Of a stretch of 64,000 bases of DNA, positions 24,210 to 25,757 are shown piece by piece; position 1 is the stretch's first letter; every line of letters starts with the position of its first letter. The stretch lies in the NCBI GenBank assembly GCA_036374655.1, contig DASUTJ010000078.1:10542-74541 (forward strand), in the 5' to 3' direction. This DNA is from Solirubrobacterales bacterium. Its GTDB lineage: Bacteria; Actinomycetota; Thermoleophilia; Solirubrobacterales; 70-9. The translations under genes and the position numbers were made by a program. Below the pieces are notes generated by a model, which saw only the letters and a program-made list of their open reading frames with translations, made no database searches and was not told the DNA's origin.

Positions 24210-25757
24210 TCAGCAGCGGCGGTAGACGACCCAGGAGTCGTTGGCCGCGACCCGCTCGAAGCCGTCCGGGACCGGGAAGGTCGGGTCGGTCGGGTCGTTG
24301 GGGTCGAGGATGAAATTGTGGATCACGAAGGGGGAGGCCGGAGCGACGAAGTACCCGCGCTTGGGGACCGCTTCCTCGCTGGCGCTGACGACCTGGGTCG
24401 GCTTGACGTCAAGGTTGAAGGCGAGGCGGGGGACGGCGCGGTGGTTGGGGACGGCGACCTTGCCGCAGAGCGGCTCGAAGGCGCCGTCGTCGACCAGGGC
24501 TGAGAGGTCGCGCTCGATTTGGGCCTGGTTGGTCAGGTCGGTGTCGACCTTGGAGTCGAGGTCCCACTGGTTCGGCAGCCAGACCAGGAACATCGCCAGG
24601 AGGATCGCGGCGAAGACCTGCCAGCGGCGACGCCAGGGATGGGCCGGCTCCAGCAGCCGCCAGCCGAGCAGGCCGACGGCGGCGAAGATCGCCAGGATCG
24701 CGGCGGCGAGCATCGTGTAGCGGGGGAGGATCGCCAGGCCGCCGCAGGCGAGCAGGGCGAAGGCGCCCAGGGCCAGCGTGGCGGCGGCGACGCCGAGGAG
24801 CGATCGGCGGCGGAGGAAGGCGAGGCCGAGGACGACGCCGCCGAAGGCGCCGACCATTCCCGGCCACTGCAGGACCTCGCCGAGGCGGCGGGGGCCGTAG
24901 AGGACGAGGTCTACCGGGCCGGTCTGGCGTTCGAGGGTCTCGACCGTTTCTTTGGTGCCGGTCCAGGAGTAGGTGGGGGAGCCGGTGGTGATCAGGTCGA
25001 ATAGGGCCCACAAGATTGGCCCGGCTAATGCCAGGACTACAAGCGTTAGGCGTGGGGGCGAGAAGGACTCCCTTGCTCGGACAAACAGCGGCCTAATTAG
25101 GCCGCTGTTTTGAGTATCCGCCCGCTCAAGGGAGTCCTTCTCGCCCTCCGCGGGCGCGTCGGGTTGCTCCGGATCCCAAGAGAGGTAGAGCAGGTAGGCG
25201 ATGGAGAAGAGCCAGGCCTCGGGACGGAGCAAGCCGGCTAGTGCGAGTAGGAGGAGGACGGGCCAGCCTGCCTTTGGCTTCTTGGCCTCTACCAGGAGGG
25301 CGGCCAGGCATAGGGCTATGTAGGGGAGGTCTATGTAGGCGCGGAGGCCGTTGGAGAGAAAGGGGGCTCGGGTCAGGACGATGGCCGCGGCTACGGCGCC
25401 GATCCAGCGGTCGAACCAGACCTCGCCGAGGCGGTAGACGAAGTAGCCGATCAGGCCCAGCGCGGCGTAGGCGCCGATCATCGTCAGCGTCAGCATCCCG
25501 TCGCCCAGCGGCGTCGTCACCAAGCCCCAAATCTCGGTCAGCGGGTGCGGCGTCGGCGGCAGCGCGGCGCCCATGTCGGGGCTTTCCAGGTGGGCGAGTT
25601 CCCGTCCCCAGACCAGCGCGTAGATCGTGTCGTAGTTGGGGAAGCCGACCGGGAAGAGCAGCAGCAGCACGCCGCTCACCGCGGCGACCCAGGCGGCGGG
25701 CGTCAGCCAGTTGCGGGCCCCCTTCGGCACGGGCGCCACGGTATCGGGGCGCCCCAC
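24210..25757 (-). CDS. Polytopic membrane protein, probable GT-C-fold glycosyltransferase
   Basis: 515 aa. More than 10 hydrophobic segments followed by a soluble C-terminal domain. General resemblance to ArnT/PMT_2/DUF2029-type enzymes, but no unambiguous motif. Carries the palindromic insert at 25056-25146 in frame. Confidence 0.5.
   Translation of the reverse strand: MGRPDTVAPVPKGARNWLTPAAWVAAVSGVLLLLFPVGFPNYDTIYALVWGRELAHLESPDMGAALPPTPHPLTEIWGLVTTPLGDGMLTLTMIGAYAALGLIGYFVYRLGEVWFDRWIGAVAAAIVLTRAPFLSNGLRAYIDLPYIALCLAALLVEAKKPKAGWPVLLLLALAGLLRPEAWLFSIAYLLYLSWDPEQPDAPAEGEKDSLERADTQNSGLIRPLFVRARESFSPPRLTLVVLALAGPILWALFDLITTGSPTYSWTGTKETVETLERQTGPVDLVLYGPRRLGEVLQWPGMVGAFGGVVLGLAFLRRRSLLGVAAATLALGAFALLACGGLAILPRYTMLAAAILAIFAAVGLLGWRLLEPAHPWRRRWQVFAAILLAMFLVWLPNQWDLDSKVDTDLTNQAQIERDLSALVDDGAFEPLCGKVAVPNHRAVPRLAFNLDVKPTQVVSASEEAVPKRGYFVAPASPFVIHNFILDPNDPTDPTFPVPDGFERVAANDSWVVYRRC
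25056..25146. repeat. Nested perfect palindromic element inside a coding region
   Basis: Outer 20-bp arms gggcgagaaggactcccttg (25056-25075) and caagggagtccttctcgccc (25127-25146). Inner 28-nt perfect palindrome aaacagcggcctaattaggccgctgttt (25083-25110). Locally low GC with rare A/T-ending codons (cta att agg). Confidence 0.85.

What the first reader, a model, noticed from the sequence alone, without database searches (positions are those of the whole stretch)
25056..25146. 91-nt nested perfect palindrome inserted in frame inside a membrane glycosyltransferase-like gene
Inside the 515-codon minus-strand ORF 24210..25757 there is a 20-bp perfect inverted repeat (25056-25075 / 25127-25146). 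It encloses a 28-nt perfect palindrome (25083-25110, aaacagcggcctaattaggccgctgttt). The stretch from about 25005 to 25146 is locally AT-richer and uses codons that are rare for this genome (cta att agg, tta, gta).

The central cctaattagg contains TAA and TAG in two of the three frames, and the gene reads it in the only open frame (GLIRP). The element encodes a hydrophilic loop (APAEGEKDSLERADTQNSGLIRPLFVRARESFSPP) between hydrophobic segments.

This looks like a small palindromic mobile or REP-like element that landed in, or was retained in, a coding region without breaking the frame. That is conceptually like the Rickettsia palindromic elements. Alternatively it is a strong intragenic RNA structure with a regulatory role such as attenuation, mRNA processing or a protein-binding site. 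I saw no second copy in this window.
Basis: seen in the sequence. Interest (0 to 1): 0.65.

Follow-up and report, generated by a model that had tools for sequence, protein, structure and literature searches.

The report
In-frame hairpin repeat inside membrane gene
The 91-base palindrome is real and is one copy of a previously undescribed family of about 95-base hairpin repeats scattered through the genomes of soil Solirubrobacterales. This copy sits in frame inside a membrane-protein gene and has been inherited there across many species, much like the palindromic elements found in Rickettsia genes.

Summary
Window 25056-25146 is a 20-bp perfect inverted repeat around a 28-nt palindrome. It lies in frame in the 515-codon minus-strand ORF 24210-25757, a weak GT39/PMT_2-like membrane protein.

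It is neither chance nor an assembly artefact. 71 orthologous genes from independent soil assemblies carry it at the same codon, in the same frame and orientation. Compensatory changes are massive (27 of 42 pairs change on both sides).

It is not specific to this locus. About 98 of these lie outside this gene, in at least 46 further loci, all in Solirubrobacterales/Thermoleophilia MAGs. Most are intergenic and abut stop codons. At least four more sit in frame in other genes.

All copies share a strand-asymmetric core of about 55 nt: an invariant 9-nt bulge GAUACUCAA, conserved G·U pairs and tandem A·G pairs. The 20-25-bp outer arms differ between copies yet are 99% Watson-Crick.

No target-site duplications, conserved termini, transposase or Rfam match were found. 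So this is like the Rickettsia palindromic elements (RPE), not a classical miniature inverted-repeat transposable element (MITE) or repetitive extragenic palindrome (REP). The function (terminator-like or protein-binding hairpin) is inferred, not shown.

The parts
24210..25757 (-). Host gene: a 515-aa polytopic membrane protein, weakly GT39/PMT_2-like (GT-C fold class). It is divergent from dnaX and convergent with an acetolactate-decarboxylase-like gene.
   Evidence: ORF. PMT_2 E = 5.6e-4, below cut-off. More than 2800 homologues, the closest at 80-93% identity, from Solirubrobacterales MAGs. Conserved synteny.
25054..25148 (-). The whole repeat unit as matched by the family covariance model (95 nt). 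It encodes roughly residues 204-235, (E)GEKDSLERADTQNSGLIRPLFVRARESFSPP.
   Evidence: Covariance model R1 scores 104.5 bits on the minus strand and 55.1 bits on the plus strand. Fold.
25127..25146 (-). 5' arm of the outer stem (GGGCGAGAAGGACUCCCUUG), translated as GEKDSL.
   Evidence: The pairs covary across orthologues and paralogues.
25125..25126 (-). 5' side of the 2x2 purine internal loop (AG). It faces 25076-25077 (AG) and forms tandem A·G / G·A pairs.
   Evidence: Loop types AA/GG, AG/AG and GG/AA dominate in 128 copies.
25119..25124 (-). 5' strand of the middle helix (CGGGCG). It pairs with UGUCCG at 25078-25083, including two G·U pairs that exist only on this strand.
   Evidence: One G·U is invariant: 47/47 and 81/81. 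The other reads G·U 39/47 and 63/81, with A-U as its alternative. G-C changes to U-A or C-G at a third pair.
25110..25118 (-). 9-nt asymmetric bulge GAUACUCAA (codons GAT ACT CAA = D T Q). It is invariant even at synonymous sites.
   Evidence: 45 of 47 orthologues found by protein homology alone have exactly this sequence. GC3 of the core is 0.52 against 0.92 for the rest of the gene.
25084..25109 (-). Inner hairpin: an 11-bp stem (25099-25109 with 25084-25094) and the apical loop AAUU (25095-25098). The central CTAATTAG is read as L-I-R.
   Evidence: 98.5-99.7% paired, with 6-8 of 11 pairs changed on both sides. Loop variants.
25078..25083 (-). 3' strand of the middle helix (UGUCCG).
25076..25077 (-). 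3' side of the 2x2 purine internal loop (AG).
25056..25075 (-). 3' arm of the outer stem (CAAGGGAGUCCUUCUCGCCC), translated as (A)RESFSP. A remnant of this arm is all that is left in orthologues that have lost the element.
   Evidence: Remnant alleles.

Best explanation
The palindrome is one vertically inherited copy of a dispersed family of nested-hairpin repeats of about 95 nt, restricted so far to Solirubrobacterales/Thermoleophilia.

**Shown**
- The family has a conserved, strand-asymmetric core of about 55 nt. From the outside in, it consists of a 2x2 A·G loop, a 6-bp helix with G·U pairs, the invariant bulge GAUACUCAA, an 11-bp inner stem and a loop NAUY.
- The 20-25-bp outer arms differ from copy to copy but are almost perfectly complementary in every copy.
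- Most copies are intergenic, a few bases from stop codons and in either orientation.
- A minority lie in frame in loops or inter-domain linkers of unrelated proteins.
- The copy in this GT-C-like gene is at the same codon, frame and orientation in 71 orthologues. These span all deep branches of the sampled gene tree.
- Some lineages have lost it through in-frame deletions. In others the loop holds a different hairpin element.

**Inferred**
- A single insertion occurred in an ancestor, into a hydrophilic loop that tolerates extra residues. Only the frame without stop codons could survive. The element is translated as about 31-35 extra residues that the protein does not need.
- It persists because of a constraint on the nucleic acid, not on the peptide. 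That constraint is either selection on the folded sense strand or arm-to-arm correction by template switching. Conversion between copies may add to it.
- The family's ordinary role is that of a gene-end hairpin. It could be a terminator-like or 3'-end-protecting structure, or a binding site for an unknown protein that recognises the bulge, the G·U pairs and the A·G pairs.

How new copies arise is unknown.
For: **Reality and strength of the fold**
-.

**Orthologous conservation with covariation**
- The alignment of 47 orthologues over 123 columns has no gaps.
- 91.5% of cells are paired, against about 45% when the partners are slid.
- 27 of 42 pairs change on both sides, in 284 cells. 0 of 500 shuffles reach this.
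- Arm peptides covary as the DNA does, for example EKDSL with RESFS and EKAPL with RGAFS.

**Dispersed family**
- 123 pattern instances, 23 of them in the GT gene. Several genomes hold 2-4 copies.
- The covariance model finds further copies that do not match the pattern (L153:2643-2739, L171:601-692).
- Flanking sequences fall into 47 clusters.
- In 81 non-GT copies, 96.3% of cells are paired and 31 of 39 pairs change on both sides.

**Arms**
- 99% Watson-Crick in 159 copies.

**Location**
- 91 of 98 non-GT copies are intergenic.
- About 56 of these lie within 40 nt of a stop codon.
- Examples: after rpoA-rplQ, and on both sides of a ferritin gene.

**Other in-frame copies**
- In a DnaE-type polymerase, between the HHH_6 and OB domains.
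- In a DinB_2/EgtB-like linker.
- In the GATase|anthranilate-synthase-I linker, in antisense orientation.
- In a membrane protein, in another reading frame.

**Constraint on nucleotides rather than protein**
- Amino-acid identity is 0.43 in the arms, 0.83 in the core and 0.80 in the rest of the protein.
- GC3 of the core is 0.52, against 0.92 elsewhere in the gene.
- The bulge is invariant at synonymous sites.

**Ancestral presence and later loss**
- NJ tree.
- Alleles with only a 3'-arm remnant, and the in-frame internal deletion in L015.

**The peptide sits in a loop**
- Residues 196-229 have pLDDT below 50 between two helices, in an otherwise poor model.
Against: - Mobility is not demonstrated. 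Target-site duplications do not exceed chance. No terminal sequence is conserved. No transposase lies next to clustered copies. Many loci are shared between species, so the copies are old.
- No second copy lies within 10 kb of the GT gene in 85 loci.
- The terminator idea lacks a canonical U-tract, and the consensus scan does not call the element a terminator.
- Copies occur in both orientations relative to the adjacent gene (25 sense, 38 antisense). Yet the conserved G·U pairs and the bulge make only one strand fold fully. A simple 3'-UTR RNA role does not explain this.
- The non-GT copies were found with a pattern that fixes the bulge and part of the loop. Conservation of those columns in that set is therefore partly by construction.
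- The gene tree is a midpoint-rooted NJ tree without support values.
- The expression data are only metatranscriptome contigs of relatives.
Confidence: 0.75

Rival explanations
1. A locus-specific cis-regulatory mRNA structure that evolved, or was co-opted, inside this gene. It could act as an RNase III site, a translation-dependent attenuator, a pause signal for membrane insertion, or a terminator for antisense transcription from the convergent neighbour. Its resemblance to repeats elsewhere would then be secondary.
For: - The structure has been kept by compensatory changes across orthologues down to 67% protein identity.
- A perfect duplex of 20 bp or more is the kind of substrate RNase III enzymes cut (established knowledge).
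- The conserved G·U pairs favour the mRNA-sense strand.
- On the antisense strand the inner hairpin is followed by UUUUGAGUAU.
- The host gene and its convergent neighbour end 1 nt apart.
Against: - The same core occurs at 46 or more other loci, mostly intergenic and in both orientations. The element was therefore not built for this gene.
- Several lineages have deleted or replaced it in frame and kept an otherwise conserved gene.
- No canonical terminator is called.
- No transcript ends are available.
Confidence: 0.12
2. A family of small structured RNA genes, or of RNA or single-stranded-DNA binding sites for a lineage-specific protein. The conserved asymmetric core would be the functional part and the long stem a scaffold. 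The coding-region copies would be fully functional members rather than passengers.
For: - Stems are variable while internal irregularities are conserved: the bulge, an invariant G·U, and A·G/G·A pairs that swap sides. This is the pattern typical of functional RNAs, and the opposite of MITEs.
- The sense strand scores 45-50 bits above the antisense strand in every copy.
- The core is kept at orthologous loci while the arms diverge.
- Metatranscriptome contigs match the core of other copies (weak).
Against: - No promoter or flank is conserved between loci.
- Orientation is independent of neighbouring genes.
- No Rfam family matches.
- Copy number is low and no partner protein has been identified.
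- Core conservation in the non-GT set is inflated by the way the copies were found.
Confidence: 0.1
3. A chance palindrome, a sequencing or assembly artefact, or a peptide motif whose codons happen to be symmetric.
For: None beyond the a priori possibility.
Against: - z = -10.6, and 0 of 200 shuffles fold as well.
- The element is present in more than 70 independent assemblies.
- The arms are poorly conserved as peptide (43%) but 99% complementary.
- It is also present in non-coding DNA.
Confidence: 0.01

Closest known systems
Rickettsia palindromic elements (RPE; Ogata et al. 2000, as summarised in PMC10969869)
   Same: - A dispersed family of short palindromic repeats.
- Many copies are inserted in frame in unrelated protein-coding genes without breaking them.
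- They add a peptide in loops or linkers that the protein tolerates.
- Orthologous copies are inherited across species.
   Different: - Different phylum: free-living, high-GC soil Actinomycetota rather than obligate intracellular Alphaproteobacteria.
- Most copies here are intergenic.
- The unit is about 95 nt rather than about 100-150 nt.
- The core is conserved and asymmetric, while the arms are variable and perfectly paired.
- The hairpin is maintained by compensatory change for a long time inside the ORF.
- Sequence relatedness to RPE families was not tested and is not expected.
Bacterial MITEs (Correia, ERIC, BOX, RUP, and SPRITE, the terminator-like element of S. pneumoniae; PMC10969869)
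   Same: - Size class.
- They fold into stable hairpins.
- They sit at gene ends and can be co-transcribed.
- Occasional intragenic in-frame copies (ERIC).
- A terminator-like appearance (SPRITE).
   Different: - The defining MITE features are absent. The termini are the least conserved part of the element.
- No target-site duplication is seen.
- No parent IS was found.
REP/BIME repeats (GTAG- and CGTC-tagged palindromes; PMC3733652 listed, abstract only)
   Same: - Extragenic palindromes clustered at the 3' ends of genes, sometimes in inverted pairs around short genes.
- Proposed roles in termination and mRNA stabilisation.
   Different: - REPs are 20-40 nt with a conserved tetranucleotide tag and a cognate RAYT transposase.
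- Here the unit is a nested hairpin of about 95 nt with no terminal tag.
- Presence of a RAYT gene was not assessed.
Intrinsic terminators without a U-tract ('I-shaped' hairpins reported for high-GC Actinobacteria; from my own knowledge, not checked here)
   Same: A long, GC-rich, perfect stem placed within a few nucleotides of stop codons, often between convergent genes.
   Different: - Terminators are not a sequence family. Here a 55-nt core is shared by all copies.
- Some copies are inside ORFs that are evidently read through.
- The consensus scan does not call the element a terminator.
Integron attC sites (from my own knowledge)
   Same: Structure is conserved more than sequence. Folding is strand-specific, with conserved unpaired bases that mark the functional strand.
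   Different: - No R/L core sites (GTTRRRY) at the stem base.
- No cassette arrays and no integrase nearby.
- Copies are embedded in housekeeping genes.

Membership tests
RPE-like in-frame palindromic repeats | Dispersed multicopy repeat family within genomes | tested here: met
   123 instances, about 98 outside the GT gene. Several MAGs hold 2-4 copies on one or more contigs. Flanks form 47 clusters.
RPE-like in-frame palindromic repeats | Palindromic, hairpin-forming unit | tested here: met
   z = -10.6. 91.5% and 96.3% of cells paired, with covariation.
RPE-like in-frame palindromic repeats | In-frame insertion in several unrelated protein genes without disrupting them | tested here: met
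   The GT-C-like gene in 71 orthologues. Also a DnaE-type polymerase, a DinB_2/EgtB-like protein, a GATase-anthranilate synthase I fusion and a membrane protein.
RPE-like in-frame palindromic repeats | Insertion at surface loops or inter-domain linkers | tested here: inconclusive
   Three of the four other in-frame copies (L161, L180, L185) lie between Pfam domains or just after one. The L155 membrane protein has no Pfam match, so its position cannot be placed. In the GT protein the segment has pLDDT below 50 between helices, but the model is poor (mean pLDDT 48.5).
RPE-like in-frame palindromic repeats | Sequence homology to the Rickettsia RPE-1 to RPE-10 families | not tested
   No RPE sequences were compared. 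Different phylum and base composition make homology unlikely.
MITE | Short, non-autonomous, no transposase gene inside | tested here: met
   The 95-nt unit has no room for a gene.
MITE | Terminal inverted repeats conserved among copies | tested here: not met
   The distal arms are the most variable columns. Only the 10 bp or so next to the core are semi-conserved.
MITE | Target-site duplications flanking the element | tested here: not met
   Direct repeats of 2-6 nt at the stem ends are no more frequent than in shuffled pairings of 83 copies.
MITE | A parent insertion sequence with the same ends | not testable with these tools
   Whole genomes could not be searched. No transposase lies between or beside clustered copies in L102, L153, L171 and L201.
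REP/BIME | 20-40-nt imperfect palindrome with a conserved GTAG or CGTC tag at one end | tested here: not met
   The unit is a nested hairpin of about 95 nt. No position is conserved at or beyond the stem ends.
REP/BIME | Extragenic location near the 3' ends of genes | tested here: met
   91 of 98 non-GT copies are intergenic by crude GC3 gene calling. About 56 lie within 40 nt of a stop codon.
REP/BIME | Cognate RAYT (TnpA-REP) gene in the genome | not tested
   Whole genomes were not available to the tools.
Rho-independent terminator | GC-rich hairpin followed directly by a U-tract | tested here: not met
   The sense strand reads UUGUCC after the inner stem and is C-rich after the outer stem. 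The antisense strand reads UUUUGAGUAU after the inner stem. The consensus scan does not call it.
Rho-independent terminator | Termination activity | not testable with these tools
   No Term-seq or strand-specific RNA-seq exists for a carrier organism. Only metatranscriptome contigs were available.
Any Rfam family | Match at or above the gathering score | tested here: not met
   Only sub-threshold matches to eukaryotic miRNA-precursor models, caused by the long hairpin. Nothing at gathering score in the window or in four related loci except SRP RNA and tRNA.

The most novel reading that the evidence does not exclude
The family may not be selfish DNA. It could be a new class of structured nucleic-acid module with a host function that works even inside open reading frames.

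On this reading the core is the binding site of a lineage-specific protein. The features recognised would be the invariant 9-nt bulge, the conserved G·U pairs and the tandem A·G pairs. The perfect 20-25-bp stem would serve as scaffold or cleavage substrate.

A related possibility is that the family spreads by a mechanism not yet described. Only the core would be copied, and the arms would be regenerated or kept perfect by fold-back or template-switch synthesis. That would explain variable but perfect arms without target-site duplications.
Probability: 0.2. Interest if true: 0.8.

Novelty: new variant of a known kind. Interest (0 to 1): 0.55.

Why it matters
In-frame palindromic repeats in protein genes are best known from Rickettsia, where they are usually linked to reductive genome evolution. 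This is a comparable phenomenon in abundant, free-living, high-GC soil Actinomycetota.

The preservation here is unusually clean. A hairpin of -80 kcal/mol has been carried inside an ORF while both arms changed together, so the same bases serve two codes.

The family's architecture is the reverse of a MITE: a conserved asymmetric core with variable, perfect arms. That raises a testable question about what keeps the arms complementary and the core constant. The candidates are selection on a folded strand, template-switch correction, or conversion between copies.

There are practical consequences too:
- The family will confuse gene callers and domain annotation in Solirubrobacterales MAGs.
- It offers a lineage marker.
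- It marks permissive insertion sites in several proteins.

Tried and rejected
- **Rfam:** searched at E ≤ 10 over the region and at gathering score over the window and four loci. Only spurious miRNA-precursor hits appeared, plus SRP RNA and tRNA elsewhere.
- **Exact-protein look-up of the window's own gene:** not on record.
- **Second copy near the gene:** none in the window or in 84 neighbouring loci of ±10 kb.
- **Viral contigs:** no match to the family pattern.
- **Target-site duplications:** none beyond chance.
- **Conserved terminal tag:** none.
- **Transposase or other mobilising gene next to clustered copies:** only ordinary genes were seen, namely ferritin, HNH, rpoA-rplQ, ligA and gyrA.
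- **Orientation bias relative to local GC skew, as a proxy for the replication strand:** 39 against 51, p = 0.2. No evidence, and a weak test.
- **Canonical terminator or promoter consensus at the element:** not called.
- **AlphaFold2 model of the host protein from a 33-sequence alignment:** mean pLDDT 48.5. It was too poor for a fold search and was used only to note that the insert is a low-confidence loop.
- **Public RNA runs:** only soil metatranscriptome contigs of relatives under 90% identical. They show that orthologous genes and other family cores occur in RNA libraries, but give no ends or depth.
- **Literature:** nothing on repeats of Thermoleophilia or Solirubrobacterales in the held library.
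- **Idea that the core inserts into pre-existing hairpins:** considered but unsupported. No GT allele has the two arms without the core. Losses leave only the 3' arm, or remove the inner hairpin.
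Full report
**1. 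The observation**

- On the plus strand, 25056-25075 (GGGCGAGAAGGACTCCCTTG) is the perfect reverse complement of 25127-25146.
- 25083-25110 is a perfect 28-nt palindrome.
- The 515-codon minus-strand ORF 24210..25757 reads through the element as ...GEKDSLERADTQNSGLIRPLFVRARESFSPP....
- GC drops to 0.57-0.62 here, from about 0.70.
- As RNA the sense strand folds at -82.4 kcal/mol (z = -10.6; 0 of 200 shuffles). As DNA z = -8.9.
- It is the strongest inverted repeat in the window and has no second copy there.
- The host protein is a polytopic membrane protein with a sub-threshold PMT_2 match. NCBI names some close homologues GT39.

**2. Orthologues**

The protein has thousands of homologues. The closest 120 (80-93% identity) come from soil metagenomes and Solirubrobacterales MAGs.

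Aligning them showed that the loop is the only hypervariable part of the protein. Most sequences carry the element-encoded peptide. Some lack it and keep only '...R(E)SFSPP'. One lacks exactly the inner hairpin. Others carry unrelated loops.

The peptides of the two arms covary as a palindrome would require: EKDSL with RESFS, EKAPL with RGAFS, and EKESL with RDSFS.

I fetched DNA for 84 orthologous loci. Synteny is conserved: dnaX diverges from the gene, and acetolactate decarboxylase and ABC transporter genes lie downstream.

48 loci carry the element at the same place, frame and orientation. 47 of them align without a single gap when anchored on GATACTCAA.

**3. Anatomy**

On the mRNA-sense strand, from the outside in:
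- An outer stem of 20 bp or more.
- A 2x2 internal loop that is nearly always A·G or G·A.
- A 6-bp middle helix, CGGGCG with UGUCCG, containing two G·U pairs. One is invariant in all 128 copies examined.
- A 9-nt bulge, GAUACUCAA, on the 5' side only.
- An 11-bp inner stem.
- A 4-nt apical loop, mostly AAUU or CAUU.

Across the 47 orthologues:
- 91.5% of cells are paired, against 42-50% when the partners are slid.
- 27 of 42 pairs change on both sides, in 284 cells. No shuffle of 500 reaches any of the measures.

The irregularities make the fold strand-specific. In every copy the covariance model scores the sense strand 45-50 bits above the antisense strand.

**4. The constraint is on the nucleic acid, not the peptide**

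- Amino-acid identity among element-bearing orthologues is 0.80 for the protein, 0.83 for the core and only 0.43 for the arms. Yet the arms are 99% Watson-Crick.
- GC3 of the core is 0.52, against 0.92 for the rest of the gene.
- The bulge codons GAT ACT CAA are identical in 45 of 47 sequences. These sequences were found by protein homology, not by the motif.
- In-frame loss or truncation in several lineages shows that the peptide is dispensable.

**5. It is a dispersed family**

A covariance model found no other copy within ±10 kb of the gene in 85 loci.
- Two are chance hits in unrelated taxa.
- 23 are in the GT gene.
- About 98 are elsewhere.
- All real hits are in Solirubrobacterales, Thermoleophilia or 'Actinomycetes' MAGs.
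- Several genomes have 2-4 copies, for example three on one 1.97-Mb contig and three within 8 kb in L153 and L171.
- The flanks fall into 47 clusters, so there are at least 46 loci besides the GT gene.
- The larger clusters are orthologous loci in different species. Their distal arms differ but remain complementary, as in the GT gene.
- In 81 non-GT copies 96.3% of cells are paired and 31 of 39 pairs change on both sides.

The shared part is the core plus about 10 bp of the proximal stem (GGGRYRCCYCTCG). The distal arms are G-rich on the 5' side and C-rich on the 3' side, but otherwise free.

**6. Where the other copies sit**

I called genes crudely, using GC3. By that measure 91 of 98 non-GT copies are intergenic, and about 56 lie within 40 nt of a stop codon, most of them within 10 nt.
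- 25 follow a gene that runs in the element's sense direction.
- 38 follow a gene that runs antisense to it.
- 7 lie between convergent genes.
- Stop-codon triplets are enriched in the expected orientation on both flanks.
- Examples include the end of rpoA-rplQ and both sides of a ferritin gene.

Four more copies are genuinely in frame in coding sequence:
- L161: between the HHH_6 and OB-fold domains of a DnaE-type polymerase.
- L180: between DinB_2 and the following domain of an EgtB-like protein.
- L185: between the GATase and anthranilate-synthase-I domains, in the antisense orientation.
- L155: in an unnamed membrane protein, in a different reading frame. That frame is open because the loop variant CTCATTAG has no stop in it.

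Three other apparent in-ORF cases lie upstream of the real start codons (trpS and others). I do not count them.

**7. History in this gene**

An NJ tree of the protein without the loop places element-bearing sequences in all deep clades. The remnant, short, 'T2' and 'T3' loops are nested among them.

With the identical position, frame and orientation, the simplest reading is one old insertion followed by several losses or replacements.
- The losses look like hairpin-mediated deletions. L015 has lost the inner hairpin and the 3' side of the middle helix but keeps both outer arms.
- In L011 the junction lies at the base of the middle helix.
- The commonest derivative keeps only the 3' arm.

The tree has no support values and is midpoint-rooted, so this step is an inference.

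**8. What it is not**

- No Rfam family matches.
- It fails the defining MITE tests: conserved termini and target-site duplications.
- It fails the REP tests: size and terminal tag.
- No transposase lies near clustered copies.
- It is absent from viral contigs.
- Its orientation shows no bias relative to local GC skew.
- It is not called as a canonical terminator.

**9. How it most likely works**

Shown:
- It is a member of a dispersed hairpin-repeat family.
- It sits in frame in a dispensable loop.
- Its structure is kept by paired changes.

Inferred:
- The family normally acts as a gene-end hairpin, either terminator-like or protecting the 3' end, or as the binding site of an unknown protein.
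- The core is kept constant by that function or by conversion between copies.
- The arms are kept perfect either by selection or by template-switch correction of quasi-palindromes. The latter is a known mutational process (my own knowledge).

Two observations fit selection on one folded strand. G·U pairs slightly exceed A·C pairs on the sense strand (23 against 8). G·U and A·G irregularities persist uncorrected.

Orientation is independent of the neighbouring genes. That leaves open whether the folded strand acts as RNA or as single-stranded DNA.

The copy inside the GT gene may be a tolerated passenger, or it may have acquired a local role. I cannot tell which.

**10. Comparison and novelty**

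In behaviour the nearest precedent is the Rickettsia palindromic elements (PMC10969869). In location it resembles REPs and terminator-like MITEs such as SPRITE. In architecture it differs from all of these: a conserved asymmetric core, and variable arms that are perfect in every copy.

I found no description of such repeats in Thermoleophilia in the held literature. I therefore rate it a new variant of a known kind. I judge it of moderate interest, with a minority chance that the core marks a new functional module or a new copying mechanism.

Noticed in passing
L020, L023, L028-L030, L036, L047, L048, L053 (GT-gene loop); L037:10001-11572 (tandem copies); L185 ORF (aa ~345-365); L083:11596-11644, L069:11581-11635, L046:6066-6114: A second in-frame hairpin element ('T2') occupies the same loop of the GT gene in other orthologues. 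Its peptide is PTGRK..NRPVG and its DNA is GACGGG(A/C)CGAAA...AAATCG(T/G)CCCGTC. It recurs in frame in a PabB-like ORF and as an intergenic hairpin just after the GT stop codon. It therefore looks like another dispersed family that colonises the same permissive site.
   Followed up: partly
L052, L055, L056, L061, L062, L067, L070, L075, L076, L081 (GT-gene loop): A third loop type ('T3', peptide ...GWELGWRRER...) also contains a hairpin in L056 (TTCCGGGCCGGG...CCGGACCGGAA). I did not test whether it is a repeat family.
   Followed up: no
L012:5279-5404, L028:5289-5410, L047:5099-5223 and 5351-5470, L003:5271-5388, L024:944-1066 and 1196-1314, L037:5169-5285, L053:3779-3903: Hairpins of about 120 nt ('family B') lie downstream of the MMPL gene, often as two copies in opposite orientation. 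They have 24-27-bp variable perfect arms and conserved inner motifs GGGTACTCAGCATGGAGCC...CGGCGGAGGTGCTCCC. Like the finding's bulge, they carry YACTCAR just inside the stem. None reaches the gathering score of any Rfam family in the two of these loci that were scanned (L024 and L047).
   Followed up: partly
L011:5204-5285, L037:4999-5080, L003:5057-5140, L034:1108-1231, L015:17987-18063: Hairpins of about 80 nt ('family B-prime') with long variable arms. Their conserved interior is CCAG(A/G)CACTCAAC(A/C)(T/A)CGAGCCAT(T/A)GGCGAG, with a UCAAC bulge and a GA/GA internal loop.
   Followed up: no
L001:9924-9967, L034:9943-9994, L051:9936-9989, L063:4025-4078, L010:1174-1225, L069:9930-9982: A perfect hairpin lies in the short dnaX / GT-gene intergenic region, just upstream of the GT start codon. 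Its form is GGGGGTGTCTGACTT...CTATAT...AAGTCAGACACCCCC. The stems vary and the loop is rich in TATA-like sequence. It could be a regulatory site for the divergent genes.
   Followed up: no
L059:8258-8304, L061:15185-15233, L044:7235-7281, L008:14154-14194, L074:2773-2821, L068:16566-16610, L046:9644-9694: Many hairpins of about 45 nt have 16-22-bp perfect variable stems and loops containing GCTATCC or CTAT. These genomes seem generally rich in perfect hairpins with conserved loops.
   Followed up: no
L024:2791-2856, L042:5276-5341, L063:912-977, L077:6726-6791 (variants L011:6774-6837, L034:6903-6968, L037:6766-6831, L053:5959-6024): A conserved 66-nt hairpin with the loop motif GGCCCCTCCCCGCTGTT(A/T)GGCC (or GGAGCCTCCCCGCTGTTGCTCC) recurs at one syntenic position upstream of the GT gene. 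It looks like an unannotated structured RNA or a binding site. It did not reach any Rfam gathering score in the two of these loci that were scanned (L011 and L024).
   Followed up: no
window 21354-21617 (+) and 19994-20065 (-): A bacterial large SRP RNA (152 bits) and a tRNA gene lie about 3-5 kb from the finding. The same pair is syntenic in the related loci.
   Followed up: yes
window 24208-24210: The host gene's minus-strand ORF ends at 24210. The convergent acetolactate-decarboxylase-like ORF (23267..24208, plus strand) ends at 24208. The two genes therefore end 1 nt apart, with no room for an intergenic terminator.
   Followed up: no
window 25078-25124, as laid in runs X25 and X27: Soil metatranscriptome contigs match only the conserved core and then diverge on both sides into different G-rich and C-rich arms. 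Other members of the family are therefore present in RNA libraries, although DNA carry-over cannot be excluded.
   Followed up: partly
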